Position numbers and translations under genes: made by a program
Shown: positions 8,805 through 27,752 of the stretch, piece after piece
Position numbering within the stretch: position 1 is the stretch's first letter
How the letters are laid out: the number at the start of each line of letters is the position of its first letter
Notes under the pieces: generated by a model
The model's input: only the letters and a program-made list of their open reading frames with translations
Databases searched by the model: none
What the model was told of the DNA's origin: nothing
DNA from: a virus
DNA length: 31,567 bases
Virus genome (UHGV): UHGV-1390503
Strand: one strand, 5' to 3'

Positions 8805-9083
8805 ATGGCAGCGGAACTTAAGAGATACAGACGCATCACATACTGCAAATTTTGTAAGGCAGAAGGTAAAAAAGTTAGAGCAATTTGGATGACTAAATAC
8901 CCTCCAGCTTACGGTGTACGAGACTGGTATAAACACTATGCATGCGAGGAGCATAAACATTTAATAGAAGACACAGACCCAGACCGGACTTGGGCAGAAA
9001 TCATAGAACGCGGCAAAAACAAGAAACAAGAACGCGACGACTATCTCACAGAAGCAGACTATCAGACGTGGTACAGATTATGA
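8805..9083 (+). CDS. Hypothetical protein with Cys/His zinc-ribbon-like pattern
   Basis: 92 aa; CKFC...CEEHKH. Confidence 0.5.
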   Translation: MAAELKRYRRITYCKFCKAEGKKVRAIWMTKYPPAYGVRDWYKHYACEEHKHLIEDTDPDRTWAEIIERGKNKKQERDDYLTEADYQTWYRL

Positions 9084-11254
9084 ATACATTGCTTTACTTA
9101 GACTTTGAAACATTCTCCGAAGCCGATTTAAAGAAAGTCGGTTCCTACGCTTACGCCGAACATCCAACTACCGAAGTGCTAATCTGTACCTATGCTTTTG
9201 ATGACGAGCCTGTGCAGGTGTGGGACTGCACCGACGGCAGCGACATGCCGGGCGATTTGCACCGAGCGCTACGCCGTCTGGTGAAGCCGAACAGCCGTAT
9301 TAAGATGGTGTGGCATAACGGTGGACTTTTCGATAGGCTCATCATGAAACACTGCTGGGGCTTTGATATTCCGGTAAGCAACACCATTGATACGATGATT
9401 TGGGCGTTTCGCCACGCGTTGCCGGGTTCACTTGATGCGTTGTGCGAAGTGCTGGGTGTATCCGCCGACAACGCGAAAGATAAACGCGGCAAGGCGCTGA
9501 TTCAGCGTTTCTCTAAACCGACGCCTAAGAACTACAAAATCCGCCGTTATACCTCCGAAACGCACCCAGACGAGTGGGCGCTGTTCATCAAGTACGCCAT
9601 TAGCGACATCACCGCGATGCGTGAAGTCTTCCATAAACTGCCGCGGTGGGGTAACTCCGAGTTCGAAGACCGTGTGCTGGAACTGGACCAGTTAATCAAC
9701 GACCGCGGGTTTAAGGTTGACGTTGCACTGGCAGAAGCAGCGATTGAAGCCGTGGAGAAGCACAAGGCACAGTTACAGGAAGAAGCCCAACGCAAATACG
9801 GCGGCTCACTTACTGGTAAAGACTTTCTGCCGATTCTGCGTGAACTTGCGCCAGCGCACCGCATCCACAATGCGCAGAAGTCAACGCTGAATGACCTGCT
9901 AGCGGATGATGATTTACCGGACGACGCCCGCACGATTATCGAAATGCGCCTCGGGGCCGCGTCCACGGCATCAACGAAATATAATCCGCTGCTGTTGGGT
10001 CGCTCTTCGGACGACCGGCGCCGTGGTTGCATCCAGTATGGTGGAGCAAAGCGTACGTTACGATTTGCCGGTAAAGGCTTCCAGCCGCAGAACCTGGCGC
10101 GCGGTTACTACCACGATGAGGAACTGGATAAAGGTATTTCCGCGCTACTTAAAGGCCGTGCGCATCGCCGTTTTGATGTAGCTAAGCTAACGGCATCGAC
10201 GGTGCGTAGTTGCATCATACCGGAAGCTGGGCATAAGTTTGTTGTTGCCGACTACTCTAACGTTGAAGGCCGTGGGCTTGCGTGGCTGGCTGGTGAAGAC
10301 GATTTAATCGAAGTATTTGTAAACGGGGTTGATGTGTATAAAAAACTCGCATCAACGGTGTTCAACGTTGCCTATGAGGATGTAACAAAGGACCAAAGAC
10401 AAATAGCCAAAGCAATGGTTCTGGGCCTCGGCTACGCGGGGGGTGTCGGTGCTTTCGTAACGTTTGCTAAAAACTTAGGTCTTGATTTGAACGATATGAC
10501 CAGAACTTTAGACGGTACTTTCCCCGACCATATATGGGCTGCTACCGCGCGTGGGTATGAGTGGGCGCGTATCCAGGAGGCCAAGCGACCGCCACGTCCT
10601 GGTGAAAAGGATGACCGACCATCATATATACTTGATAAGAAAGTATGGAGAACATGTGACGCTCTGAAACGCATGTACCGAGAAGCTAATCCTGCAATAG
10701 TTCAATTCTGGCGTGACATTGAAGATGCGGCTATGGCGGCTATCCGTAATCCCGGTAAAGAGTTCACCGCAGGTCCGCGCGGCGTTAAGTTTTCGCGTAA
10801 CGTAGAAACAGACAACAACGGCAACAAAGTCGCGGGCTGGTGGTTGCGCATGACGCTGCCGTCAGGTCGCGTTATGTCTTACCCCGGAGTCGGGTTAAGC
10901 GTATCAAAAGAGACAGACGAAGAAGGGAAGGTGTCTACTAACGTGCGCATCAAATACCAGGGAGAGAACCAGTTAACACGTCAGTGGGGCTTTCAGTACA
11001 CCTACTCCGGTAAACTGGTGGAAAACTGCACCCAGGCGCTGTGTCGCGATTTGCTGGCTAATGCTCTGCTGAACGTAGAAGCCAACGGCTACCCGATTGT
11101 ACTTCACGTGCACGATGAGATTATCTGCGAGACACCGGATTTACCAGAATACAATGTTGCTGAGCTTGAGCGGTTGATGTGTGAATTACCAGAATGGGCG
11201 GAGGGGTTCCCTCTTGTAGCGGAAGGTCAGGAGTTAAAACGTTATGCTAAGTAA
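9080..11254 (+). CDS. Family A DNA polymerase with 3'-5' exonuclease domain
   Basis: The track ORF starts at 8990; ATG 9080 is ATGA-coupled. Exo I motif LDFETFS; polymerase motif A DYSNVEGR, motif B KAMVLGLGYAGG, motif C HVHDEI. Confidence 0.9.
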   Translation: MNTLLYLDFETFSEADLKKVGSYAYAEHPTTEVLICTYAFDDEPVQVWDCTDGSDMPGDLHRALRRLVKPNSRIKMVWHNGGLFDRLIMKHCWGFDIPVSNTIDTMIWAFRHALPGSLDALCEVLGVSADNAKDKRGKALIQRFSKPTPKNYKIRRYTSETHPDEWALFIKYAISDITAMREVFHKLPRWGNSEFEDRVLELDQLINDRGFKVDVALAEAAIEAVEKHKAQLQEEAQRKYGGSLTGKDFLPILRELAPAHRIHNAQKSTLNDLLADDDLPDDARTIIEMRLGAASTASTKYNPLLLGRSSDDRRRGCIQYGGAKRTLRFAGKGFQPQNLARGYYHDEELDKGISALLKGRAHRRFDVAKLTASTVRSCIIPEAGHKFVVADYSNVEGRGLAWLAGEDDLIEVFVNGVDVYKKLASTVFNVAYEDVTKDQRQIAKAMVLGLGYAGGVGAFVTFAKNLGLDLNDMTRTLDGTFPDHIWAATARGYEWARIQEAKRPPRPGEKDDRPSYILDKKVWRTCDALKRMYREANPAIVQFWRDIEDAAMAAIRNPGKEFTAGPRGVKFSRNVETDNNGNKVAGWWLRMTLPSGRVMSYPGVGLSVSKETDEEGKVSTNVRIKYQGENQLTRQWGFQYTYSGKLVENCTQALCRDLLANALLNVEANGYPIVLHVHDEIICETPDLPEYNVAELERLMCELPEWAEGFPLVAEGQELKRYAK

Positions 11255-15202: not shown

Positions 15203-15236
15203 AGAAAAGGCCCCTTTTGGGGCCTTAGTTTTCTTT
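15203..15236. terminator. Bidirectional rho-independent terminator between the replication and tail modules
   Basis: AAGGCCCC-TTTT-GGGGCCTT with T-runs on both strands; near-identical to the hairpin at 26143-26162. Confidence 0.7.
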
Positions 15237-17088
15237 ATACAGCAAATGCATGGTAAGACACGACAACATCGCCAGAAGTCCCAGACCTCCCAAACACAAG
15301 AGTTGAGGACGTAGCCCCACCGTTTATAACATCCGTCCCGGATGCTGGGGTGGTGAGAACTGCGATAGTTTTCCCTGCTATTAGTGGTTTTATACTCAAA
15401 GTAACCGATACGTTTTCAGCTCCACTTCCTATCGTAGCCACCCCGCGTTGTTCTTCCGGGTGTGTTGGGCTGTTTCTGTTTACGATGGAACAAGTGCCTC
15501 CACCTACAGCCCCGCCACCAAGAAAAGAGCACTTATCTGCCAGTACGGAGCTACCACCTGACAAGTTGTCGATGACGAAAAGCCCGTTTGCCTTGTTACT
15601 TTTCAATATGCAATTATTAAGCATCACTCCGAGCGTAGAGTCGACCACCATATCACCATTCTGAGCGGAATCAATATCATTAAACTGGAACAGGCAACCA
15701 GTAAAATTAGCTCTCAGAGGTGCCTTACTGTTGTACTTAGTGACCTCAACACCGAAGTTACGGCTGTCAGATACGATTACATCGGAAGCAGAAAACTCAG
15801 GAGAGTCACCACGAATAACAATACATGATTTATTGGTGGAATGGTTTGAAGAGTAGTAGCCCCCGGTCATACGTACGTAGCTTGCATCTGTAATACGGAG
15901 AGCATTACCTTTTGCCAGGTCTGACATTACGTTATCAAGCCAAGTCCAACGCGTCCCGATAATCTCAATAGCTGCGGCGTCTGTAGCGTAGTCGCCGCAG
16001 GAGTAAAATCTGTCGCCAGAAAAAAGGATCCCCTCCGTTACCGTTGTGATTTGAGCAGTGTCTTCGGTAATCTGAACGCCGATAGTACAGTCACTATAAG
16101 TGTTTTGAAGGAATCGCGTGTTTATATTCCCGCCTAATAAAGCAACTCCAAATTGTGACGCGGCAAAGCGGTTGAATCGGATATTAAGCTCTCCGGCCCC
16201 ATTTCCTCTCGGGGCAATTATGCAATGTTTCAAAAACGCAAAAGAGCAATCATCTACAGTGTTAAGATGGTTTTCAATTGAGATCCCCGTGGAGTTAGAG
16301 GATGTTCCTTCGTTTGATTGAATAGTTATCCCTGATATACGTGCAAAAGTAGAAGTTACACTGAAACACGTATCACCATCGGCTACAGGTCGGAAAGTGG
16401 TATTTAACTTACCTGCGCCTACAAGGTTTACCGGGCTATCCAGCACAACATCTTTAACCAGGAATACACCGGCTGGTACGACTACGGTATTGGAAGAATA
16501 ACTATTTAGTTTCGCGGCTTGTAGTGCTGCATTAAATGCGGCGCTGCTGTCCGTTGCACCAGTAGGGTCAAATCCTTCAAAATCTGCAACACTGATTACA
16601 TCTTTATTTTTATCGTGCTGGGTGCGACTTCTGGCCCCCGTGAATGGCTGCTTTACCCCGATAAGTTTATCACCGAGTTGGTCTTCCGACGTGTCGGCTA
16701 AATCCGAACGTAAATCCGGGTCTGTCTGCGGCTTCCAGTCAGCGTTTCCTACCGGGTTAAATCCCGCCGGAACGGTAACTGGAAGTGTTCCCGCATAGGA
16801 GTACCATGTTTTACTTACAGGGTCGTACACTACTTTGTCGCGGTCATTAACTGTTAACGTGCCGCCAGTGGAAAAGTCCCATGACACCGGAGAAAAACCA
16901 GCGTCACGCAACACAGCAGGGAGCGTCTTCTGCGTCTGCCCAGTGACCTGATTAGTCGCGTAATCGATATCCGCACCACCTGCGACACCGCCAGATTTAC
17001 CTGTGATAACCTCGGCTTCGAAAATCTGGTGTTTCTTGGCGGTTTGTAAATCCGCCAGGCTTAAAACGTCACCGCATCCGCTTGACAT
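15235..17088 (-). CDS. Tail fibre/tailspike with predicted beta-helix (pectate-lyase-like) depolymerase domain
   Basis: 617 aa; RBS AGAGGA; N-terminal tail-fibre-like segment, then a Gly/Asn/Ser-rich region with repeated hydrophobic patterns typical of right-handed beta-helix depolymerases. Confidence 0.7.
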   Translation of the reverse strand: MSSGCGDVLSLADLQTAKKHQIFEAEVITGKSGGVAGGADIDYATNQVTGQTQKTLPAVLRDAGFSPVSWDFSTGGTLTVNDRDKVVYDPVSKTWYSYAGTLPVTVPAGFNPVGNADWKPQTDPDLRSDLADTSEDQLGDKLIGVKQPFTGARSRTQHDKNKDVISVADFEGFDPTGATDSSAAFNAALQAAKLNSYSSNTVVVPAGVFLVKDVVLDSPVNLVGAGKLNTTFRPVADGDTCFSVTSTFARISGITIQSNEGTSSNSTGISIENHLNTVDDCSFAFLKHCIIAPRGNGAGELNIRFNRFAASQFGVALLGGNINTRFLQNTYSDCTIGVQITEDTAQITTVTEGILFSGDRFYSCGDYATDAAAIEIIGTRWTWLDNVMSDLAKGNALRITDASYVRMTGGYYSSNHSTNKSCIVIRGDSPEFSASDVIVSDSRNFGVEVTKYNSKAPLRANFTGCLFQFNDIDSAQNGDMVVDSTLGVMLNNCILKSNKANGLFVIDNLSGGSSVLADKCSFLGGGAVGGGTCSIVNRNSPTHPEEQRGVATIGSGAENVSVTLSIKPLIAGKTIAVLTTPASGTDVINGGATSSTLVFGRSGTSGDVVVSYHAFAV

Positions 17089-17100
17089 ATAGAGTCCTCT

Positions 17101-19668
17101 TTAATTAAAACCGTTGCTGAATCCGCCGGAGAAACCGCTACCAAAAGGCGCGACGCCGTCGTATTTATAGAAATCTGCTTCGTAGTTAATCCCGGTAATC
17201 TTAACTGTTCTGTCGTCTCCTGGGTCAACGGTAGAAACAAGAATCATCTGAGCATTATGCCTTGCTTCGTTGCCGAATGAAAACTCAGTTTTTAGCGCGC
17301 TATTCCCCACATAAATTGCTTCTTGAGGTGCGGATAACATAATCACCTCGCGGTCGTGTCCCCCAGGAACCACCGCGACGCTCTGAACTCCGCCATCTCG
17401 CCTCTTAAGAATCAATGAGTGGTCGTCTCCGGGGGTAAATGTAACAGGTTGTGATAGCGTCAGCGCAAGCCCATTAACGGCAACAACATAGCCATCTTGC
17501 GGGGCCATACGCGAACCTTTTACCACACTTACCGCACGCCCAGGCATTGCAAAAATCCCTTCTTCTGTCGCCGTGAATGATACGGTCACCTTTTTCAACA
17601 GGTTTTTCTGGTAGCGGCGGTATGCGGCCCAGTACGCCTGCCTATAATTTCGAATCCCTTTAGAGTCATACGTTTCAGTATTGACTCCTCCTTCTGCTGG
17701 TATGCTGATAGTCTCTTTTACGTTGGTATCGGGGTCAATGTAGGAGAACTTGAGACTATCGTATACCTGAGCGTCGTTGAATGTGCGTGTCCACTTCTCC
17801 GAAGCTGTGGTTTTGCTACGATGCGTGAACACCATCTCGGGCCCCATGCGAGGGCGTTCGAAATCCAGAAGAATATCGGCACCTCTACGGTATGGGGTGC
17901 AGAAAATTGCTTCCGCTATCGTAGTTACTATGTCCTGCATAGTAGTTTTGTAATCATCGAATGTGTAGCAGAATTGCCCAGCCTCGGCGTCCCCGAAATA
18001 ACTTTCAATCTCATCCTGTGTGGCCAGCAACTTATCCATGTTAGCCGTGGTGAGATTGATGTTTCCTACAACCGGGTCGCGAGCAAGCCGTATCAGGGAC
18101 TGCACTGCCTGTGTATTAGGTGTCATAACTGTATCAAAAACACCGTTACCTAGGTACTTGTACACCATCTCGGTAGCAACCATGCGCAATTGAGGCTGTT
18201 TAACCTCTGCGGCGCGGGGTGTCTGCTTACGGGCGGAATGCACTGTTGTACGGTTGCCGTAATGTGGCGTTCTGTCTATTGACTGTCCGTAGAGGTTTAC
18301 GTAAGTAACCTCATCGACAACTGTACCCTCGAAATCAAGGTCCAGATTAGTAACACGGCGCATACGCACGCGTACTTTAGAAGGGGTGGATAGGTTGGCG
18401 TATATTGTAACGCCAGTGTAATCCTGACTACGGCCTGTAACTGTTCCTTGTTTTGTGTACACTGGGCCATACGGTTGTCCGTCAACATCCAGCAGCTGGT
18501 ACTGCATTTCAACGACAACAGACGCCCGTGTTTTATTCTTGCCGTTGTCCTTGTACATGCCGTTTGCCGCGGCAACGTTAGTTACCACTCGTTCTACGTT
18601 TATGCGGTTGATGTAGGCCCAGTCGGTAAGACTTGCGGTATAAGTGTCCTGGGGACCAATCAGATGTTTACCCTGAACGTTATCTATGGGGTACGCCGTT
18701 GTACCTATTAAATCCCATTGTGACTGGTTGTTAGAAATATCAACCGCCAGAGTAGTGTCGCTAACAGAAATAACTGGGTAATACCCGGAAAGATTTACCT
18801 CGCCGCCAAGGCCACCTGGAGTTGTATCCGCGAATACACCATCAAAGAACGCTATCTGACCGACAGAAAGAACATCATAAAATCCCGCGTCCGGCCCGGT
18901 AACTATACCGGTTGAACCAGAGCGCTGTATAGTAAACAGACCCGCGTTAACCTGAACGTCGTTCTGAGCCTTAAGTACAACACCGTCTACTTCGTTAGAC
19001 GCCACGGTGATATAAAGCCCCTGGTCAATATGGTCGCCGATGCGTAGTTGTGGGGTGCTAGTGTTATTCGGTGACGTGAACGGTGCGTATATTTCTACGG
19101 AAGTGCCTGTGATTTCCTGCACACGAGTGTCCCCGTCTGTTACATCTTCCGGTTTAATATCCAGATAACCTCGGCCCGCATCATAGTAGCCGTATTCCAC
19201 TACCGTACCCGCGGCGTTGAACACCTTGTAAGTGGTCATAAGGTCGTTAGGGATGGTCTGAACTCTGCCGCAGATGTCATAAGTTCGCTCGTATGGGCGG
19301 GCCTTGTTATTCCGGTCTGTCAGGCTGTTGTTCGGAGAGTCTGCTTGCTGGTTAGCGAGATTGTTAGACGCGCCCTTTGTTGACGGTGTGAGTAATTTAG
19401 CCAGCGGTTTAAGGATTATGCTGAACACTTTCATCACACCCTTGATAGCGCCACCCCCAGCCCCCTCCAGGATGTGGAAAACGGCATCCTGTTTTAATGC
19501 GTCAAAATCTTCTGTTACGTCGTTATCCTCTCCTATCTCTTCGAGGAAAACGCGAAACGGCACACCATCCGGAATATGGTTTACAACGAAATTCAGCGGC
19601 GAGTCGTTATGCCGTTTTTGCGAGAACGTCCCGTCTTCGTTGCGGGTGTAGTGGATGACTATCGCCAA
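17101..19668 (-). CDS. Tail tip/host-specificity protein (lambda gpJ-like)
   Basis: 855 aa; sits after the M-, L- and K-like genes; the only start in frame before the upstream stop is TTG at 19668. Confidence 0.6.
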   Translation of the reverse strand: MAIVIHYTRNEDGTFSQKRHNDSPLNFVVNHIPDGVPFRVFLEEIGEDNDVTEDFDALKQDAVFHILEGAGGGAIKGVMKVFSIILKPLAKLLTPSTKGASNNLANQQADSPNNSLTDRNNKARPYERTYDICGRVQTIPNDLMTTYKVFNAAGTVVEYGYYDAGRGYLDIKPEDVTDGDTRVQEITGTSVEIYAPFTSPNNTSTPQLRIGDHIDQGLYITVASNEVDGVVLKAQNDVQVNAGLFTIQRSGSTGIVTGPDAGFYDVLSVGQIAFFDGVFADTTPGGLGGEVNLSGYYPVISVSDTTLAVDISNNQSQWDLIGTTAYPIDNVQGKHLIGPQDTYTASLTDWAYINRINVERVVTNVAAANGMYKDNGKNKTRASVVVEMQYQLLDVDGQPYGPVYTKQGTVTGRSQDYTGVTIYANLSTPSKVRVRMRRVTNLDLDFEGTVVDEVTYVNLYGQSIDRTPHYGNRTTVHSARKQTPRAAEVKQPQLRMVATEMVYKYLGNGVFDTVMTPNTQAVQSLIRLARDPVVGNINLTTANMDKLLATQDEIESYFGDAEAGQFCYTFDDYKTTMQDIVTTIAEAIFCTPYRRGADILLDFERPRMGPEMVFTHRSKTTASEKWTRTFNDAQVYDSLKFSYIDPDTNVKETISIPAEGGVNTETYDSKGIRNYRQAYWAAYRRYQKNLLKKVTVSFTATEEGIFAMPGRAVSVVKGSRMAPQDGYVVAVNGLALTLSQPVTFTPGDDHSLILKRRDGGVQSVAVVPGGHDREVIMLSAPQEAIYVGNSALKTEFSFGNEARHNAQMILVSTVDPGDDRTVKITGINYEADFYKYDGVAPFGSGFSGGFSNGFN

Positions 19669-20024
19669 AATTCAATCTCCTGATATGTGTCGCGTAAATC
19701 GTCCAGGCGGTCGAGGCGCACTTGTCTGGACGCTAACTCACAGTGGCTTACCATACCGTCATAATACACGCCTGCGTGCCACACTACACGCCCCCTGTGA
19801 TAAGTACCAAGCAATACCGCGTCGTAATTCTGTGGACTGGTGGCACGTTCCAGACCTTTTGGGTTTGAGTGACCCGCGTCAAACGCCGCGTCTATAGCCG
19901 TTGGGGATGTTACGTCGAAAGTCGGGGTAGATAGGCCGACATCGCCGCGTACCCTGCGCACGTGATGCCAACAATTGTAACGACGAAAGTCATAAGGAAG
20001 GCCCGTATAGTCCGTGATACTCAT
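19659..20024 (-). CDS. NlpC/P60-like tail protein (lambda gpK-like)
   Basis: The track ORF is 19659..20183; the in-frame ATG at 20024 is ATGA-coupled to the upstream stop. YNCWHH and HAGVYYDGMVSHCE suggest a Cys/His peptidase fold. Confidence 0.5.
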   Translation of the reverse strand: MSITDYTGLPYDFRRYNCWHHVRRVRGDVGLSTPTFDVTSPTAIDAAFDAGHSNPKGLERATSPQNYDAVLLGTYHRGRVVWHAGVYYDGMVSHCELASRQVRLDRLDDLRDTYQEIEFWR

Positions 20025-20536
20025 GACAAAAGCACTCCACGCAACAGCGGTATCTCTTCCGGCGTCATCAGGATTCCTGTCTGCCTTTGGTTTAGCATAG
20101 GCGTTCCGGTCTCTGCGGTGAACACGCCTTTTTCTTGCGTCAAAGTCTGCAACTCGTATACCACCGGGCCATCGCATGGGCACGACAGGTCGGTGCTTAC
20201 GTAACGGCGGAAGATGAATTTAGGCAACTCTGTGTTGCTGTAAGGGATGCGGTCCATCTCTTCATCGAGAATGTTAAGAACATCCGGCAGTGAGAATGAT
20301 GCTGTCTGGTCCATGTCGTTATTGTTCGCGGCGTTCTTGGCATCCATAGGGGTAGCTTCGAACGTAACGGTTTCGCCAGTCTCAAGCGTAGCTGTAATGT
20401 CAGACGTGCCGCGCACGAGCAACCACCGCTTCGAGAGAAGCGGGTGCGTTATTTCAAGAGTAATGTAATCCAGTTCGCCGTCTGGGTTAGATGCCAGTTT
20501 ACGGCGATATGCTGCTTCTACTGATTCCTGACTCAT
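20021..20536 (-). CDS. Minor tail protein (lambda gpL-like position)
   Basis: 171 aa ORF with ATG; called from position and size in a lambda-like order. Confidence 0.5.
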   Translation of the reverse strand: MSQESVEAAYRRKLASNPDGELDYITLEITHPLLSKRWLLVRGTSDITATLETGETVTFEATPMDAKNAANNNDMDQTASFSLPDVLNILDEEMDRIPYSNTELPKFIFRRYVSTDLSCPCDGPVVYELQTLTQEKGVFTAETGTPMLNQRQTGILMTPEEIPLLRGVLLS

Positions 20537-20646
20537 TTATATACTCTCTTAACGCTGCGGTATGCGCGTTCTATATCGCTATGCAGACGGCAATAATTAA
20601 ACCACCCTCGCATATGGGCGTTAACTAATTCTTTGCTTCTACTCAT
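20533..20646 (-). CDS. Small ORF (37 aa) coupled on both sides
   Basis: ATG 20646-20644 overlaps the upstream stop; its TGA overlaps the ATG of 20021..20536. Confidence 0.3.
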   Translation of the reverse strand: MSRSKELVNAHMRGWFNYCRLHSDIERAYRSVKRVYK

Positions 20647-21140
20647 GATTGCATCGGGTCCCAAATTCGTGGAAACGTTGATTGTGCAGCTCCGTATGCT
20701 TTAAGGAAACCGCCTAAGCAATCACCATAACAACCGAACAAATCAGGCAGATTCTTCGTAAGACATGTATCTTCCTGAATCGCTGTGCGTTCTGCTGTTG
20801 CGGTGAACGTAATTACCCAGTTCTTGCCGTCGTCGGTGCTGTCGCTAATCGTCGATGTGATGAGTACCTGGTGGTCCTCGATACCTAACCCGGTATCATG
20901 AGGCATGATAAACGAGGACGCCCCGCCGTCGATGTTGTTCAGGAAGCTATAAAACGCCTGACGCCCGAGAGAAGACACGACGAGCGTAACGCTAATAGGA
21001 ACCGGTTCGAAGTACGTGTCTCGCCCCTGACGAGGTAAGCCACCCTGAACCTCGGTGCGCCAGATATTACTCCCCCTGGTCTGGGAGTACCCCTTCGACA
21101 CTATCGGGCGAAGGGACATAGGGAATCTCAAATCGCTCAT
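20643..21140 (-). CDS. Minor tail protein (lambda gpM-like position)
   Basis: 165 aa ORF with ATG, immediately after the tape measure gene. Confidence 0.5.
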   Translation of the reverse strand: MSDLRFPMSLRPIVSKGYSQTRGSNIWRTEVQGGLPRQGRDTYFEPVPISVTLVVSSLGRQAFYSFLNNIDGGASSFIMPHDTGLGIEDHQVLITSTISDSTDDGKNWVITFTATAERTAIQEDTCLTKNLPDLFGCYGDCLGGFLKAYGAAQSTFPRIWDPMQS

Positions 21141-21143
21141 TAA

Positions 21144-23453
21144 TTAATACCCCGGCTGACCGCGAGTAGAGCGGCGAGCTTTAGAAATCGGTGAGTTGTT
21201 ATCCTGTAACTGCGACGCTACTGTTTCACTGATTATAATACGTAAACGCCCCTCGTCATCACGTTCTGTTACGGCGGAATCCACACGGCCAGTGGTATTA
21301 TTGACGATGGTGACATTATCACCGCCGGACGGGCCGCCGTTTTGACCCATAATCTCTTTCATCTGCTGCGCGGTTCGTACGCGCGATGCACCCGCTGGCA
21401 TGATAACTTCTGGTTTACCGCGTTCAGCGATAGTAGACATCTGGCCTGCTGATAGCTGCCCACCCTGTTCACGTGCGGAACGAATCTTACCTATGTTAGC
21501 CATACCGGCGGCTACGGCGGCGGCGGCGGCAACCGGTGCCAGGAATGGCCCCACAACCGGTATCGCTGCTGTGGACTTATACGCCTCAATGGCGGAGGTG
21601 TACGTGGCGATTGTGGCCTGAGCTATAGCGAAGGCTTTATACGCGGTGGACGCCTCGCCAAATGCAGTTTTAGCATTAGCCGCCATGTCACCGAAGGCAT
21701 CCCCGGTGGCTTTGGCACGCTTCATTGAATACTGTTCATCCAGAGCCAGGAGCGCCATCTGGTACTGCTCGGCGTTAATTATGCCGTCAGCCATGTATTT
21801 TGAGAGGATTCTCGCTTTTTGGGACTGTTGTATTTCCAGAAGCTCAAGCTCAGCAGCATTCTGACCCATAATCTGAGCCATGAAGTCGTCGCCTTTCTGC
21901 TGCTTTTCCTGCTGCTCTTTTCTTATCTTATCCAGTTCTTCCTGGCGGGCCTGTTCAGCAGAGAGCATAATCTGCGTCTTGGCGTTTTCATACTGCTGCT
22001 GGCTTATAGTTCCGGCGCGGTTGAATTCTTCAAGTTTCGCCAGTTTCTGTTCTTCTGCCGCTGTGATACGTGAAATTTCGTCTCCAGTTGTGCGGTCGAC
22101 AGTAGCAAGGAAATCTTCCGCTGCTTTTTTCTGCCGTTCAGCTGCGGTTTCTTCGCGTTTGGCTTGTGCCGCCAGACGTTTCTCGTTCGATTTAGCCTCG
22201 CGGTCTGCCTTCGCTTTTTCGGTAGCGTCGATGCGAGCGATGTCTTGCTGTGCTTCCGTGTCACGGGCAGCGTTATACGCGGCTATCTGTTCTTTGGTGA
22301 CAGCTTCACGTTTAGCAAACGCCTGCTTATCAAGTTCAGCTTGTGCCCGGATACGCTCGCGGTCGCTTAAGATGGCGATTTGCTGGTTCTTAACGATAGC
22401 TTCGTTCTGTTCCTGGAATCTCTGCGTCGTTGAGTTGACGTTACGACCGAGATTCTTTTGGGCCTCCGCCGCAGCGTTTGCCGACTTCTCAGCGTTCTCC
22501 AGTGCCGTAGCATTCTTGTTGGCATTGTCGGTCAGGCGGATAAGTTCCGGGTTCAGCTGTTTTGTGTTGCCCAGCCAGTCGGTAAACACATCGGCGATGC
22601 GACGAGCATTCTCAGCGGTCGGCTCTTTATTAAACGCGCTCTGTGCCGCTATCATCTCCAGCGCCTGGTCACGGTTAACCCCAAACTTACTGCTAAGCTC
22701 TGCGATATTCTGCGCCAGCATGTTGACGCCTACGATGTTACCCTCGTAGGTTCCCCCGAGTTTTTCTAAAGTGTCGCCTACATCAGCACCCTTAGAAACC
22801 AATGCATCGTACTGGCTAATAGCTGATGCAGTGGAGGCTTTCCATGTTTCCCACGATTCGGCATCTTCACGAACAGCTTTAGCGGTTTGCTGCGCGATAA
22901 GGTCTGCGTTAGCCTTAGCCAGAGCAAGCTGAGTCTCCGCTGCTTCTCTGCTGATTTGGGTAAGCTGGATGAGGCCATCTGTCAGTTCGAGAGAGCCAGA
23001 TGCCGTTTGCTGGAAGGTGTCTTTTAACTGTTTCTGCGCGGCTTCGAGGTCTTTTGAACTCCCCTCCGCCTCTGTTAGCGATTTGTACAGGACACCGCCG
23101 ATTGCTGACGCAAGAGCAATTACAGCCCCAAGCACCGCCCCACCGGGGCCAAAAGCACCCGCAAGCTGCGAACCTTGTTGCCCGATTGCTACGAATGCAG
23201 ACGTGCCGGATTGCAACTGGACTACCATGTCCTGCACCTGGAAGCCAACCTGCCCTGCGGCGTTACGGAACTTAGCGAAACCGTCGGAGGCCGCTTTAGA
23301 CGTAGCGGAGTTTACTTTATTAACATCCGGAGTTAGTTTGTTTACGGATGCATCCGCCCGGTCTGCAGATGCCGCCATAGCGTCAAGCTGTTTGGCAGCG
23401 ACGTCAGCCCCTTCAGTTTTTACTCTGGCGATTAGGGAAGCCGTATCAGCCAT
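21144..23453 (-). CDS. Tail tape measure protein
   Basis: The track ORF starts at TTG 23468; ATG 23453 has GAGGG upstream. About 770 aa, Ala/Gln/Lys-rich and coiled-coil-like, downstream of the chaperone ORFs. Confidence 0.8.
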   Translation of the reverse strand: MADTASLIARVKTEGADVAAKQLDAMAASADRADASVNKLTPDVNKVNSATSKAASDGFAKFRNAAGQVGFQVQDMVVQLQSGTSAFVAIGQQGSQLAGAFGPGGAVLGAVIALASAIGGVLYKSLTEAEGSSKDLEAAQKQLKDTFQQTASGSLELTDGLIQLTQISREAAETQLALAKANADLIAQQTAKAVREDAESWETWKASTASAISQYDALVSKGADVGDTLEKLGGTYEGNIVGVNMLAQNIAELSSKFGVNRDQALEMIAAQSAFNKEPTAENARRIADVFTDWLGNTKQLNPELIRLTDNANKNATALENAEKSANAAAEAQKNLGRNVNSTTQRFQEQNEAIVKNQQIAILSDRERIRAQAELDKQAFAKREAVTKEQIAAYNAARDTEAQQDIARIDATEKAKADREAKSNEKRLAAQAKREETAAERQKKAAEDFLATVDRTTGDEISRITAAEEQKLAKLEEFNRAGTISQQQYENAKTQIMLSAEQARQEELDKIRKEQQEKQQKGDDFMAQIMGQNAAELELLEIQQSQKARILSKYMADGIINAEQYQMALLALDEQYSMKRAKATGDAFGDMAANAKTAFGEASTAYKAFAIAQATIATYTSAIEAYKSTAAIPVVGPFLAPVAAAAAVAAGMANIGKIRSAREQGGQLSAGQMSTIAERGKPEVIMPAGASRVRTAQQMKEIMGQNGGPSGGDNVTIVNNTTGRVDSAVTERDDEGRLRIIISETVASQLQDNNSPISKARRSTRGQPGY

Positions 23454-23829
23454 CTTCTCTGCCCTCAAATATTCCGTCCAGGCCCATGATAACCTCGGCC
23501 TCGAACAAACTTATGCCGTAACCGGCGACATCGCGAAACGCTACCAAATCTTGCCATTTGAGCGCATCGCGCGGGATTATAACGATAGTATCATCTGTTT
23601 CGCGCTGTAGGAATTTAATGGCACGGTATTTCTCGAACACGTCGATAAGAGAAACGGGGCATTCTGGCCCCGTCGCTTCTTTCATCTGCGGTTCTTTAAT
23701 CACGCCCATTGCAATCAAAGCCGCCTGGTGGCCTGCTGCGATGTCGTCGAATTGCTTACGTTTGTGGCGGTCGACAAAGCACCATTGCGCAAATTCATAC
23801 AGCGCTTTTACTTTTCCGAAAGTTTCTCA
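23446..23829 (-). CDS. Tail assembly chaperone frameshift extension (lambda gpT-like), probably expressed as a fusion
   Basis: Open frame from 23826 with no nearby ATG or RBS (the track uses TTG 23718); it is in the -1 frame relative to 23808..24224 and overlaps its last 6 codons, where GGAAAAG lies. Confidence 0.45.
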
Positions 23830-24224
23830 CGACTGTCGGTGTGGTGCTTAACTACGGCTTCTGCCAGCCCGCTGTACTGGTCGAACAGGTTAGCCAGTGC
23901 CTCTTTGCGGAAAGGTTCGTCGAACGACCAACCGGTGACGATTTCAACGGCAAGCTGCTTGTTCAGGTCCATCACCCGCCAGCCCTTCTCATCGTTATAG
24001 CGTGCCCAGTTATTCAGTGCCTCACACTCTTTATCTAATGGCGCAAGTTCTTCCGTAAGGCGTCGAATTGCCGTTGTGTAGGCGCGGCCTGCGCGAACAC
24101 CGGCATCACAATCGGGGCCGATAACCTGTAGCCATTCACCGGAATCTTTACCACTCGGCAGAAGGATAGGCATTTTAGTGCCTACAGCATGGCGGTCAGC
24201 AAAATAAAAATCAGAAAGTTTCAT
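23808..24224 (-). CDS. Tail assembly chaperone (lambda gpG-like)
   Basis: 138 aa; RBS AAGGA; immediately upstream of the tape measure gene; terminal codons sit in the GGAAAAG motif. Confidence 0.55.
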   Translation of the reverse strand: MKLSDFYFADRHAVGTKMPILLPSGKDSGEWLQVIGPDCDAGVRAGRAYTTAIRRLTEELAPLDKECEALNNWARYNDEKGWRVMDLNKQLAVEIVTGWSFDEPFRKEALANLFDQYSGLAEAVVKHHTDSREKLSEK

Positions 24225-24780: not shown

Positions 24781-25911
24781 ATGGCCAGGAAGAAAATAAC
24801 CGACGAGCAGTTACAGGAAGAATTGAACGCCGGGATGAAGAATATCGACATTGCCCGTAAATACGGCATCTCAGACCGCGTTATTCGTATACGTAAAGCG
24901 AAACTAGCGAAGAAAGGAGTTGGTCACGGGCGGGACGTCAGCCACCTTGTGCCAGATGGCTACAAGATTAAAGGGACGTCGTCTCTGGTGGACGAGTTCG
25001 GCAACACTAAGTTGCAATGGGTTAAGACTGACACCGATGTCGAACGTCAGGTTGAATTGATGAAAGCCGTAATCGAAGGCATGAAGTCAGAGATTACGCC
25101 CGTCGCACCTGTTAAAGCAGCACGCGCCAAACGCGACGACAAGTTACTCAATCTTTACACGGTATCTGATTTCCATCTCGGTATGCTGGCCTGGGCCGAC
25201 GAGAGCGGCGACGACTGGGATATGAAGATTGCTGAAGACTTGTTCTCCCGTTGGTTCGATGCAGCGTTTCAGAAAGCGCCGGATTCAGGAACTGGGGTTA
25301 TTAACCTGCTGGGTGACCTCGCGCACTTCGACAGTCTGGTTGCTGTTACACCGGCAAGCGGTAATGTTCTTGACGCCGATACCCGCTACCAGAAACTGGT
25401 ACGCTACATGATTCGTATGGTACGTCGTGTTGTCGATATGGCCCTTGTTAAGCATAAAAATGTTCGCTTGCTTATCGTACAAGGGAATCATGACGAAAGC
25501 GGAATGATTTGGTTAGCTGAGATGTTCAGCACGCTATACGACAATGAGCCTCGTGTGTTCGTCGATACTTCGCCAGATGTTTACAAGATGGTGCAACACG
25601 GCAAAACGACGCTGTTCTTCCATCATGGGCATAAAGCGCGCTTCGACGCTATCGAACCAGTTATGATTGCCAAGTTCCGCAAAGCATTCGGCGAGAGCGT
25701 TTATAGCTACGCCCACGTAGGCCACCTGCACCACCAAAAGATTGTAGAAAGCCGTAACATGATTGTTGAGCAACACCGCACCTTAGCGGCCAAAGACGCC
25801 TACGCATCCAGAGGCGGTTGGATGTCGGGCCGTAGTGCAAATGTAATTACTTATAGCGCCGAATACGGCGAGGTCGCACGTTTAACTATTTCACCGGAGA
25901 TGCTGGGATGA
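24781..25911 (+). CDS. Calcineurin-like metallophosphoesterase with N-terminal HTH-like basic domain
   Basis: 376 aa; DFHLG, GDLAHFD, GNHDE, HHGH and GHLHH occur in the order of the metallophosphoesterase signature; the first 50 aa resemble a helix-turn-helix. Confidence 0.7.
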   Translation: MARKKITDEQLQEELNAGMKNIDIARKYGISDRVIRIRKAKLAKKGVGHGRDVSHLVPDGYKIKGTSSLVDEFGNTKLQWVKTDTDVERQVELMKAVIEGMKSEITPVAPVKAARAKRDDKLLNLYTVSDFHLGMLAWADESGDDWDMKIAEDLFSRWFDAAFQKAPDSGTGVINLLGDLAHFDSLVAVTPASGNVLDADTRYQKLVRYMIRMVRRVVDMALVKHKNVRLLIVQGNHDESGMIWLAEMFSTLYDNEPRVFVDTSPDVYKMVQHGKTTLFFHHGHKARFDAIEPVMIAKFRKAFGESVYSYAHVGHLHHQKIVESRNMIVEQHRTLAAKDAYASRGGWMSGRSANVITYSAEYGEVARLTISPEMLG

Positions 25912-26166: not shown

Positions 26167-27333
26167 TTATGCGTAGGTGATACGCTGGATAACGATAGAC
26201 GACTGGTACTGGTTGCCTGTAGCCTGTCCTTCTATGCTCTGAGTGATTGACTCAGGTCCGCCAATCTCAGGTGTAACCGCCGTGAGTTCCGCACGTTTCA
26301 GGCTGAAAGACATAGCCCCGTTTACCCCCGCCAGAATAGAGTTAATCTCTACCTGCTGTTCGTTGATAAACTTCTGAATCATAGCCATGTCGTACAGCTT
26401 ACCGGAGATGGAGAAGGTGTTAGCTGCGCGGCCTCGCTCCACGAACGCGACGCTACTGTTGCCTAGCTCGAACTGTGCGGACGCACCGTTGTCGTTGGTG
26501 ATAGTTAGAGTATCGCAACGCAACGGCGTAGAACCGTCGAACACAGACACATCTACAGACGAGAACGGCTCATCGGTGAACGTCACCTGGGAGAAATCAG
26601 AGCCAGACGGCGGGGTGGTAAGAATCTCCTGACTCAGACCAATGAACGGGAAGCTACCAGTCACCATCGCGTTTACAGCCTGTTCAATGGTGAAACCGGA
26701 GATTTCCACGCCTTTGGTCAACATGTACGCGTCCGGGTTCCCGCACTGGCCTTTGAACCATGTCAGAATGGAGAACGTCTTACACGCGTTACCGGTTTCC
26801 AGCTTGTCGCCAGTTTTAGCGTCGGTGGTTACAGTCTCTGCGGTCAGCGTGTGCTGAATGCCCGCGCCCGTTACTACCAGAGCGGAAGCCGCGGTAACGA
26901 TAAACGGTTTTGCGTTGTCGCCGGTTAAGTCGGTGAACGCAATCAGGTCGCCAACTTCTACACCGTCAGTAATGAAGCTACCGGCAGCGCGGGTGAATGT
27001 TTTACCTGCTGGGGCGACCGTAATTTCGGCACCCGTAATCTCTACCCCTGCTTGCCACGTAGAAGTCATCGCGCCAGCAAGGAAATCATCCTGACTACGG
27101 GAGCTAAGTTCGATGGCGTACTCCCCGCTAACCTGTTTGTTACCGGTGCGGATAGACGTAGTTTCACGGCTGCCGTCAAGTTCGTTGGAAGTAAGCGCAT
27201 CGCGGGTTACCGCTGGAACACCGCCGGTATTACGCAACGGCGACCAGACCGGGTTAGTAGGTGTTACGCCCGGGGTAGTTTCCGCCACATAGAATTGCGC
27301 GGTATTCGCGCCCTTAAAAGGAGTTGTAGCCAT
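26167..27333 (-). CDS. Major tail (tube) protein
   Basis: The track ORF starts at GTG 27339; ATG 27333 has AAGAGG upstream. About 388 aa, Thr/Gly/Ser-rich and beta-rich, placed after the tail-completion genes and ending at a strong terminator. Confidence 0.55.
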   Translation of the reverse strand: MATTPFKGANTAQFYVAETTPGVTPTNPVWSPLRNTGGVPAVTRDALTSNELDGSRETTSIRTGNKQVSGEYAIELSSRSQDDFLAGAMTSTWQAGVEITGAEITVAPAGKTFTRAAGSFITDGVEVGDLIAFTDLTGDNAKPFIVTAASALVVTGAGIQHTLTAETVTTDAKTGDKLETGNACKTFSILTWFKGQCGNPDAYMLTKGVEISGFTIEQAVNAMVTGSFPFIGLSQEILTTPPSGSDFSQVTFTDEPFSSVDVSVFDGSTPLRCDTLTITNDNGASAQFELGNSSVAFVERGRAANTFSISGKLYDMAMIQKFINEQQVEINSILAGVNGAMSFSLKRAELTAVTPEIGGPESITQSIEGQATGNQYQSSIVIQRITYA

Positions 27334-27335
27334 AT

Positions 27336-27752
27336 TCACAGCCTCTTGGTGAATGCAATAAAGTTAATTGACAATGGTCGTTTGGCCCATCCGTTTTCTA
27401 CAATCAGCGGCCCCAGGCTAACCGATTGAACCTCGGCGCAGATGTCGTTACGCGAAAATGACTTACCTGCTTTAAACGCCGTGTTAAGTAAGTCTGCCAT
27501 TTTATTGATTGGCGCGCTACCTTTCACCGACGCGTAGTTAATGTCGACCTGATAAATACCAGAGCGTTGTTCCGTGAAGAACAAATCTGCCTGTTCCGTA
27601 TCAGCCAGCAACATGTAACTTGCCAGATATGGCGTATCTGTTGACGTCGGTGCATCGATATTTTCAAGCGCTACCCTGATGCCGTTGGTGGTCCCGAAGG
27701 CTACCAGCGGCACATCGAACGCTTTTGTTAAGTCCTCAAAGTAGCCCATCAT
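27336..27752 (-). CDS. Tail terminator/completion protein (lambda gpU-like position)
   Basis: 138 aa ORF, ATGA-coupled. Confidence 0.45.
   Translation of the reverse strand: MMGYFEDLTKAFDVPLVAFGTTNGIRVALENIDAPTSTDTPYLASYMLLADTEQADLFFTEQRSGIYQVDINYASVKGSAPINKMADLLNTAFKAGKSFSRNDICAEVQSVSLGPLIVENGWAKRPLSINFIAFTKRL

What the first reader, a model, noticed from the sequence alone, without database searches (positions are those of the whole stretch)
20533..20646. Unannotated 37-codon ORF wedged between two minor tail genes with start/stop overlaps on both sides
Seen in sequence: the ATG at 20646-20644 overlaps the upstream TGA and its own TGA overlaps the downstream ATG (ATGA on each side), filling an otherwise unexplained 106-nt gap. 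Lambda has no gene at this position. Inference: a small tail assembly factor or a coupling peptide.
Basis: seen in the sequence. Interest (0 to 1): 0.25.

Follow-up and report, generated by a model that had tools for sequence, protein, structure and literature searches.

The report
Tiny swappable gene in phage tail operon
The 37-codon reading frame is a real, evolutionarily conserved but dispensable micro-gene that sits as a swappable cassette between two tail-tip genes of a Kagunavirus-like phage; it is probably a cut-down version of an uncharacterised 60-residue helical phage protein that also turns up in non-tail operons, so it is unlikely to be a tail-assembly factor.

Summary
On the minus strand, ATG 20646-20644 overlaps the TGA of the Dit-like tail gene. 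The ORF's TGA (20535-20533) overlaps the ATG of the DUF1833 minor tail gene. The ORF fills the 106-nt gap exactly.

The ORF is a real gene. Homologues of 29-37 codons occupy the same slot in about 25 other Guernseyvirinae-like contigs, always intact. Window versus L105 shows 17 synonymous against 8 replacement codon differences, and no other frame stays open.

It is not needed for tail assembly. The closest phages (SZH-1, phiSD1, several IMG/VR contigs) have 97-99% identical flanking proteins. They lack the ORF through a clean 113-nt indel, with the two tail genes coupled directly by ATGA.

The slot behaves as a cassette site. Flanks 93-96% identical carry three different alleles. Other phages carry 58-79-aa long forms (Serratia phage Eta Eta_0065-like, a predicted three-helix protein), and one retains a 9-codon remnant.

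Long forms also sit in lambdoid nin regions and between terS and terL. The short-to-long homology is moderate (hhalign P 5e-5).

No Pfam, PHROG, PADLOC, PDB or fold match gives a function. My best reading is a translationally coupled accessory cargo gene with a host- or phage-protein-binding role. Interest is low to moderate.

The parts
20533..20646 (-). 37-codon micro-gene (MSRSKELVNAHMRGWFNYCRLHSDIERAYRSVKRVYK; 4.6 kDa, pI 10.3, predicted all-helical)
   Evidence: Searches give the sequence and ORF. Near-identical copies occur in L006 and L052, and a 78%-identical copy in L105. dN/dS is far below 1. AF2 predicts a helix over residues 3-36 at pLDDT 93, from a shallow alignment.
20538..20650 (-). 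113-nt segment present here but absent from the closest phages. Its boundaries are ambiguous by a few nt because of the repeated AAT/ATGAGT. ATGAGT is repeated at both ends (20646-20641 and 20536-20531).
   Evidence: Alignment with SZH-1 and phiSD1. Megablast hits break exactly here.
20643..21140 (-). Upstream Dit-like tail-tip gene (165 aa). Its stop TGA 20645-20643 overlaps the micro-gene's ATG. It carries one extra C-terminal Ser compared with relatives.
   Evidence: (phrog_384).
20021..20536 (-). Downstream DUF1833 minor tail gene (171 aa). Its ATG 20536-20534 overlaps the micro-gene's TGA.
   Evidence: phrog_396; PF08875.
20544..20550 (-). Purine-rich AAGAGAG inside the conserved V-K-R codons, 8-14 nt upstream of the DUF1833 gene's ATG. 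It is a likely Shine-Dalgarno-like element supplied by the cassette. Equivalent AAGAGG / GCGGAGG / AAAAGG elements occur in other alleles.
   Evidence: Sequence read directly. The functional role is an inference.

Best explanation
The ORF is a real but dispensable accessory micro-gene, carried as cargo inside the tail-tip operon of a Kagunavirus-like (Guernseyvirinae) siphophage.

It has no promoter or terminator of its own. It is most likely transcribed late with the tail genes. It is most likely translated by termination-reinitiation at the ATGA shared with the Dit-like gene. It passes ribosomes on to the DUF1833 gene through a second ATGA and an SD-like AAGAGAG in its last codons.

The product is a 4.6-kDa, strongly basic, helical peptide. 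It is most likely a trimmed derivative of a mobile family of 58-79-aa three-helix phage proteins (Serratia phage Eta Eta_0065-like), retaining the end of helix 2, the turn and the start of helix 3. Members of that family are wedged by start/stop overlap into several operon junctions: Dit/DUF1833, the lambdoid nin region upstream of the late regulator, and terS/terL. In the Guernseyvirinae slot the gene is exchanged between phages as a cassette, and is shortened or lost by deletion.

Shown: coding status, dispensability, cassette behaviour, and the multiple contexts of the long form.

Inferred: the mode of translation, and descent of the short form from the long form (about 75% likely).

Inferred with low confidence (about 30%): the peptide binds a host or phage macromolecule in the infected cell (counter-defence or host modulation) and does not build the tail.
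For: Coding status:
- The frame is intact in every copy: window, L006, L052, L105, 37P2, 14 contigs with P0006, L084, L114, L117, L113 and L120-L124.
- L006 vs L052 shows 5 synonymous and 0 replacement codon differences. Window vs L105 shows 17 synonymous and 8 replacement, with dN 0.16 and dS saturated.
- All other frames, including the antisense 45-aa ORF, are broken in relatives.

Dispensability:
- A clean 113-nt indel separates the window from SZH-1 and phiSD1. L004, L005 and L007-L009 also lack the ORF, with flanking proteins 97-99% identical.
- Roughly 35 of 47 contigs retrieved by the Dit C-terminal DNA pattern have no ORF in the slot.

No own signals:
- Promoter and terminator hits are at background level. 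There is no Rfam match.

Cassette behaviour:
- L105, L068 and L117 have flanks 93-96% identical, but their ORFs are only 48-55% identical.
- The window and L052 share the ORF (98%) but differ downstream (73%).

Decay:
- L095 keeps a 9-codon remnant of a P0017-like gene.

Link to the long form:
- Same slot.
- Shared W-x9-[DN]-[IFL]-[EQ]-x-A-Y-x-x-[VL]-[KR] core.
- hhalign of 9 short vs 20 long forms: P 5.4e-5, probability 67%.
- All seven short types score positive against a long-only HMM, with shuffle p of 0.0006-0.025.
- L113 looks intermediate.

Long form outside the tail module:
- P0004 and P0007 lie in nin regions, as does L056. P0014 lies between terS and terL. P0018 lies in a pre-terminase cluster.
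- P0004 was retrieved at E 7e-17 with a profile built only from tail-slot sequences.

Structure:
- The long-form AF2 model has pLDDT 88 and three helices.
Against: - Short-to-long homology is not statistically secure. The long-only HMM gives the window peptide only 6.7 bits, and the first hhalign run gave 31% probability.
- Every short form found so far sits only in the tail slot. A tail-specific optional role, such as a non-essential stabiliser or ejection accessory, is therefore not excluded.
- No direct evidence of translation exists.
- There is no functional homology of any kind.
- Late expression and a strongly basic character are not typical of known anti-defence proteins.
- Part of the conservation of the V-K-R codons could reflect their SD-like role and not protein function.
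Confidence: 0.8

Rival explanations
1. An optional tail-tip accessory. The peptide binds the Dit-like or DUF1833 protein, either as a minor virion component or as an assembly or ejection helper. It improves tail-tip assembly, stability or DNA delivery in some hosts or conditions, but is not essential.
For: Position and translational coupling predict co-expression with tail-tip proteins at similar levels. All short forms found (about 25 contigs, at least 5 allele types) lie only in this slot. Purifying selection applies.
Against: Relatives with 97-99% identical partner proteins lack it. Near-identical flanking proteins carry alleles only about 50% identical, which is hard to reconcile with a co-evolving structural interface. 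Probable homologues sit in nin and terminase operons. There is no match to any tail chaperone or tail family. The Eta virion proteome listed only seven abundant proteins and could not have resolved a 64-aa protein (PMC3918226).
Confidence: 0.2
2. A decaying remnant. The 37-codon frame is a non-functional leftover of a longer cassette gene on its way to loss. It stays open only because a stop or frameshift would uncouple translation of the essential downstream tail gene.
For: The slot shows a reduction series of 58-79 aa, then 29-37 aa, then 9 codons, then nothing. The ORF's 3' end doubles as an SD-like element for the downstream gene. The open frame alone has about 7% chance expectation.
Against: A need for coupling would conserve openness of the frame but not the amino-acid sequence. 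Window vs L105 shows 17 synonymous vs 8 replacement codon changes with dS saturated. Independent short alleles share an invariant A-Y and a conserved R..[DN][IFL]E.AY..[VL]KR core. L122 keeps the ORF without the upstream overlap.
Confidence: 0.1
3. A cis-acting translational tuner. The main role of the cassette is to reset the expression ratio of the downstream essential gene (DUF1833 protein, TerL or the late regulator) by inserting a short coupled cistron with its own SD. The peptide is secondary.
For: In every context the family sits immediately upstream of another gene and overlaps it, and in most it overlaps the gene before it as well. SD-like purine runs lie in the last codons.
Against: Protein-level conservation across 17 clusters at 50% identity, with invariant Ser, Lys, Trp and Tyr, and a confident three-helix model, argue that the protein itself is selected. 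Start/stop overlap is the default gene junction in these operons.
Confidence: 0.1

Closest known systems
Uncharacterised Eta_0065-like small phage proteins (Serratia phage Eta hypothetical protein Eta_0065 = P0001; P0002-P0019) and Klebsiella phage 37P2 UOX38090.1 (34 aa, 'hypothetical protein')
   Same: 37P2 UOX38090.1 is a clear homologue: 50% identity, same slot, same ATGA overlaps. Eta_0065-like proteins occupy the same slot in other Guernseyvirinae-like phages and share the W...D[FI]ExAY..[LV][KR] core.
   Different: The window peptide lacks the N-terminal S-x-Y-[IV]-P-D...K...W-L-L-W-D-R-R half and the C-terminal half of helix 3. The statistical link to the long form is only moderate. 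None of these proteins has a known function, and none matches a Pfam or PHROG family.
Morons and nin-region cassette genes of lambdoid phages (own knowledge: Hendrix/Juhala concept of morons; nin-region genes with conserved boundary sequences)
   Same: Sporadic presence and absence between close relatives. Non-essential. Inserted between conserved genes. The long-form relatives actually reside in nin regions, flanked by GGAGGCNGCATGA-type boundaries.
   Different: A classical moron brings its own promoter and terminator. This ORF has neither and depends on the tail operon's transcript and on translational coupling.
Accessory genes embedded in siphophage tail regions that act on the host, such as HK97 gp15, phi80/T1 Cor and T5 Llp (own knowledge)
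   Same: A non-structural cargo gene located among tail genes, with variable presence.
   Different: Those proteins are membrane proteins or lipoproteins that cause superinfection exclusion. This peptide has no signal peptide or transmembrane segment (GRAVY -0.9, pI 10.3) and no sequence similarity to them. The comparison is an analogy only.
Phage tail assembly chaperones and small tail assembly proteins (lambda gpG/gpT type)
   Same: Small protein encoded in the tail module.
   Different: This phage's chaperone gene is elsewhere (23808-24224, phrog_15027). The micro-gene matches no chaperone or tail family and is missing from near-identical phages.

Membership tests
Eta_0065-like three-helix small phage protein family (unnamed; alignment A5) | Significant profile match to the family | tested here: inconclusive
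   A long-only HMM gives the window peptide 6.7 bits, with 34 of 5000 shuffles scoring as high. hhalign of the short profile against the long profile gives P 5.4e-5 and probability 67% over 20 columns.
Eta_0065-like three-helix small phage protein family (unnamed; alignment A5) | Core motif W-x9-[DN]-[FIL]-x-x-A-Y-x-x-[LV]-[RK] (end of helix 2, turn, start of helix 3) | tested here: met
   Window residues W15...D24-I-E-R-A-Y-R-S-V-K33 align without gaps to the long-form motif.
Eta_0065-like three-helix small phage protein family (unnamed; alignment A5) | N-terminal S-x-[YF]-[IV]-P-[DE]-x-x-K-x-x-x-W-L-L-W-D-R-R segment (invariant S, K, W) | tested here: not met
   This segment is absent from the 37-aa peptide. 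I therefore treat the ORF as a probable truncated derivative, not a full member.
Eta_0065-like three-helix small phage protein family (unnamed; alignment A5) | Occupies the Dit-like/DUF1833 junction with start/stop overlaps in Guernseyvirinae-like phages | tested here: met
Short-form micro-gene group (37P2 UOX38090.1 / P0006, L105, L084, L114, L117) | 29-37 codons, same slot, conserved R-x-[HR]-x-[DN]-[IFL]-[EQ]-x-A-Y-x-x-[VL]-K-R core | tested here: met
   tblastn finds 37P2 at E 8e-3, 53% identity over 30 aa. The alignment is A8. L105 is 78% identical.
Moron (autonomous accessory transcription unit) | Own promoter and terminator flanking the inserted gene | tested here: not met
   No promoter-like site occurs in or beside the insert. 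One weak terminator-like hit lies inside the ORF, at background frequency.
Moron (autonomous accessory transcription unit) | Presence/absence polymorphism between otherwise collinear relatives | tested here: met
Tail assembly factor / chaperone | Conserved wherever the cognate tail proteins are conserved | tested here: not met
   Absent from SZH-1, phiSD1, L004, L005 and L007-L009, which have 97-99% identical flanking proteins.
Tail assembly factor / chaperone | Physical interaction with tail-tip proteins or presence in assembly intermediates | not testable with these tools
   This needs pull-down, virion mass spectrometry or multimer co-folding.
Pfam DUF7212 / phrog_741 | Score above the family threshold | tested here: not met
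   Only the 37P2-type allele gives a sub-threshold hit (15.9 bits against a cut-off of 27; phrog_741 E 0.095). The window peptide gives none.

The most novel reading that the evidence does not exclude
The Eta_0065-like family, including these minimised 29-37-aa forms, is a junction-hopping micro-gene under conflict-driven turnover. One candidate role is a small inhibitor of a host anti-phage system, or of a rival mobile element. It would spread by cassette replacement into translationally coupled junctions just upstream of essential late genes (tail-tip DUF1833 gene, terL, late regulator), where it cannot easily be lost without harming the neighbour. The three different alleles found in 93-96% identical flanks would then record an arms race.
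Probability: 0.12. Interest if true: 0.6.

Novelty: new member of a known kind. Interest (0 to 1): 0.25.

Why it matters
For annotation, this is a genuine 37-codon gene. Gene callers and most Kagunavirus records miss it, and no record in the phage collection carries this allele.

For biology, it marks the Dit-like/DUF1833 junction of Guernseyvirinae as a small hotspot for variable cargo. The slot holds micro-genes of several allele types, long forms, a remnant, or a C-terminal extension of the Dit-like protein.

It also defines an uncharacterised family of helical mini-proteins that move between unrelated phage operons. If the peptide turns out to target a host defence or a phage process, it would be a very small, easily synthesised effector. 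If it does not, it remains an ordinary hypothetical accessory gene.

Tried and rejected
- The word-indexed protein search with the 43-aa extended ORF found nothing.
- Distant-mode blastn of the insert against phages found no match.
- tblastn found only 37P2.
- Pfam, PHROGs, PADLOC and NCBIfam gave only sub-threshold, inconsistent hits: DUF7212, Plasmid_RAQPRD / ICE_RAQPRD, phrog_741. I rejected these as chance or unsupported.
- The PDB sequence profile search gave 0 hits.
- Foldseek against BFVD gave one uncharacterised Salmonella virus KFS-SE2 protein (E 0.048), with no functional information.
- The afdb50 fold library was unavailable.
- The genome contigs pattern scan for the long-form motif found 0 hits. 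E. coli genomes gave only partial flank matches. The family is therefore rare in prophages of reference genomes.
- Rfam found no RNA family in the insert.
- The antisense 45-aa ORF (20491-20628, + strand) was rejected because it is interrupted in L105, L003 and L117.
- The Eta proteome paper reports only seven abundant virion proteins and is uninformative for a 64-aa product.
- The AF2 single-helix model of the 37-aa peptide rests on two sequences and carries little information.

Full report
**Setting**

The window is a Kagunavirus-like (Guernseyvirinae) siphophage. The best DNA matches are Escherichia phages SZH-1, 26 and BUCT823, Shigella phage phiSD1 and Raoultella phage RP180, at about 92-93% identity.

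The tail module runs on the minus strand:

| Gene | Coordinates | Evidence |
|---|---|---|
| Tail assembly chaperone | 23808-24224 | phrog_15027 |
| Tape measure | 21144-23468 | |
| Dit-like tail-tip gene | 20643-21140 | phrog_384 |
| The finding | 20533-20646 | |
| DUF1833 minor tail gene | 20021-20536 | PF08875, phrog_396 |
| Minor-tail (lambda K-position) gene | 19659-20183 | phrog_329 |
| J-like tail-tip gene | 17101-19668 | |
| Tailspike | 15235-17088 | |

**Observation**

The upstream gene ends ...CAA TCA TGA. The ATG at 20646-20644 lies within TCATGA. The 37-codon frame (MSRSKELVNAHMRGWFNYCRLHSDIERAYRSVKRVYK) ends in a TGA at 20535-20533 within AAATGAGT, which also contains the start of the DUF1833 gene.

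The ORF fills the 106-nt gap exactly. An open frame here is not very improbable on its own, since about 7% of shuffles stay open. The case therefore rests on comparison with other phages.

**Is it a gene?**

Yes, with high confidence.

- Near-identical 37-codon copies occur in IMG/VR contigs L006/L053 and L052. A 78%-identical copy occurs in L105.
- A 34-codon homologue (50% identity) sits in the same slot of Klebsiella phage 37P2, where it is annotated as a hypothetical protein. It also occurs on 14 metagenomic contigs.
- Alleles of 29-32 codons occur in L084, L114, L117 and L120-L124, and a 37-codon variant in L113.
- Every copy is intact.
- Substitutions are strongly biased to synonymous sites. 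L006 vs L052 shows 5 synonymous and 0 replacement codon differences. Window vs L006 shows 3 and 1. Window vs L105 shows 17 and 8, with dN 0.16 and dS saturated.
- No other reading frame on either strand stays open across the alleles. This includes the antisense 45-aa ORF at 20491-20628.
- There is no Rfam hit. Promoter- and terminator-like matches do not exceed background.

**Is it needed for the tail?**

No. The closest phages lack it through a clean 113-nt indel (window 20538-20650). In SZH-1 and phiSD1 the Dit-like stop and the DUF1833 start overlap directly in ATGA. IMG/VR contigs L004, L005 and L007-L009 lack it too, with flanking proteins 97-99% identical to the window's.

Of 47 viral contigs retrieved purely by the conserved DNA at the Dit C-terminus, about 12 carry something in the slot and about 35 carry nothing. 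This argues against both an obligatory assembly factor and a 'coupling peptide', because coupling works without it.

**The slot is a cassette site**

- L105, L068 and L117 have 450-nt flanks that are 93-96% identical on both sides, yet carry three different alleles (37, 34 and 30 codons; 48-55% nt identity).
- Conversely, the window and L052 share the ORF (98%) and the upstream flank (93%) but differ downstream (73%).
- Other phages carry 58-69-codon genes in the same slot: L033, L036, L040 (Serratia phage Eta), L059, L061, L062 and L119.
- L095 retains a 9-codon remnant, MMLCYKVTK. It can be derived from a P0017-like 65-codon gene by deletion between two ATGATG repeats, and it still has ATGA overlaps on both sides.
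- In L023-L025 and L048 the same junction instead carries a 180-290-aa extension of the Dit-like protein.

**The long-form family**

A profile built only from tail-slot sequences retrieved six proteins from 5.8 billion. A full HMMER scan of 1.84 billion cluster representatives found 15 family proteins of 58-79 aa at E of 0.001 or below. The other two hits were the 34-aa P0006 and two large proteins with repeats, which I take to be spurious.

The family has invariant Ser, Lys, Trp and Tyr, and a W-L-L-W-D-R-R...W...D-F-x-x-A-Y-x-x-L-R-L-H signature. AlphaFold2 gives a confident three-helix model: pLDDT 88, with helices at 2-8, 16-33 and 37-61. Nothing in Pfam, PHROGs, PADLOC, NCBIfam, PDB sequences or fold libraries identifies it.

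Its genomic contexts are diverse:

| Context | Members |
|---|---|
| Dit-like/DUF1833 slot | P0001, P0002, P0003, P0011, P0013, P0017 |
| Lambdoid nin regions, downstream of NinB, NinG or RusA and upstream of the presumed late regulator | P0004, P0007, P0010, L056 |
| Between terS and terL | P0014 |
| Small-gene cluster before the terminase | P0018 |

In almost all cases the gene is joined to its neighbours by start/stop overlaps. In nin regions it is flanked by GGAGGCNGCATGA-type boundaries. A protein that functions equally in early and late operons of unrelated phages is unlikely to be a dedicated tail part.

**Is the window peptide a member of that family?**

Probably, as a trimmed derivative, but this is not proven.

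For:
- It occupies the identical slot.
- It aligns without gaps at the W-x9-D-[IF]-E-x-A-Y-x-x-[VL]-[KR] core.
- hhalign of nine short against twenty long forms gives P 5.4e-5 and probability 67%.
- All seven short types score positive against a long-only HMM, at the same profile positions, with shuffle p of 0.0006-0.025.
- L113 retains more of the W-R-[IL]-F-[RD] segment and looks intermediate.
- The L095 remnant shows that in-frame shrinkage does occur in this slot.

Against:
- The window peptide alone scores only 6.7 bits.
- The N-terminal signature of the family is missing.
- All short forms found so far are confined to the tail slot.

I put the homology at about 75%.

**Mechanism, with status of each step**

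- Shown: the gene is embedded in the tail operon without signals of its own, overlaps both neighbours, is under purifying selection, is dispensable, and is exchanged as a cassette.
- Inferred: it is expressed late and translated by termination-reinitiation. The purine-rich AAGAGAG in its conserved V-K-R codons serves the downstream gene. Other alleles have AAGAGG, GCGGAGG or AAAAGG at the same place.
- Inferred: the 4.6-kDa, pI 10.3 peptide is helical and acts by binding another macromolecule.
- Speculative: the target. The pattern of sporadic distribution, allele replacement in identical backgrounds and movement between operons is what one sees for genes involved in phage-host or phage-phage conflict. 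I give that reading about 30%. The optional tail-accessory reading gets about 20%, and the remnant and translational-tuner readings about 10% each.

**Comparison with known systems and verdict**

The ORF behaves like a moron or nin-type cassette gene but fails the moron criterion of autonomous transcription signals. It resembles tail-region cargo genes such as HK97 gp15 or Cor only by analogy; I draw that comparison from my own knowledge, and there is no sequence similarity. It is not a tail assembly chaperone.

Its clear relatives are unnamed hypothetical proteins: 37P2 UOX38090.1 and, probably, Eta_0065. I classify it as a new member of a known kind, a small accessory phage gene. It belongs to a family absent from curated libraries.

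Interest is modest for a specialist. The cassette dynamics and the multi-operon distribution are neat, but there is no functional lead.

Noticed in passing
L023 1600-2501, L024 1885-2501, L025 1564-2501, L048 1571-2501: At the same Dit-like/DUF1833 junction these contigs have no micro-gene. Instead the Dit-like protein appears to continue in frame into a 180-290-aa C-terminal extension ending ...YATIPQADSAWGSKYITRIDF. This resembles the 'evolved Dit' proteins that carry an added domain.
   Followed up: no
L095 1-130 (minus strand); L119 3001-3198: A 9-codon remnant ORF (MMLCYKVTK) keeps ATGA overlaps on both sides. It can be derived from a P0017-like 65-codon gene by deletion between two ATGATG repeats.
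   Followed up: yes
L105, L068, L117 (Dit-like/DUF1833 junction): Three contigs with 93-96% identical 450-nt flanks carry three different micro-gene alleles (48-55% nt identity). This indicates cassette replacement within a conserved frame.
   Followed up: yes
L056 620-840; L057 3990-4200; L060 1430-1630: In lambdoid nin regions the long-form gene and its neighbours end in ...E-A-A-stop, with a shared GGAGGCNGCATGA-type boundary (SD plus ATGA) on both sides. This could serve as a recombination linker for shuffling small genes.
   Followed up: partly
window 8990-11254 (+): The DNA polymerase ORF has an internal stretch (aa 472-568) that matches an endonuclease family (phrog_93, E 5e-11). This may be an inserted HNH- or intein-like element.
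   Followed up: no
window 24781-25911 (+): A DNA repair exonuclease gene (phrog_704) lies on the opposite strand, inside the minus-strand tail operon. It sits between the tail assembly chaperone gene and a minor tail gene (phrog_290, 26167-27339).
   Followed up: no
L061 2819-3472 (-) and 4714-5340 (-): Two opposite-strand ORFs of 217 and 208 aa, with no Pfam hit, flank the Dit-like / micro-gene / DUF1833 trio in one metagenomic phage. They are further cargo insertions in the tail-tip operon.
   Followed up: no
window 19659-20183 (-): The mechanical ORF for the minor-tail (lambda K-position) gene starts at a GTG that overlaps the DUF1833 gene by about 160 nt. Relatives annotate a 121-aa product that starts at the 4-nt overlap with the DUF1833 stop, so the true start is probably near 20024.
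   Followed up: partly
L122 840-957: One short-form allele (29 aa) is separated from the Dit-like stop by a 27-nt spacer instead of an ATGA overlap. The upstream overlap is therefore not obligatory.
   Followed up: no
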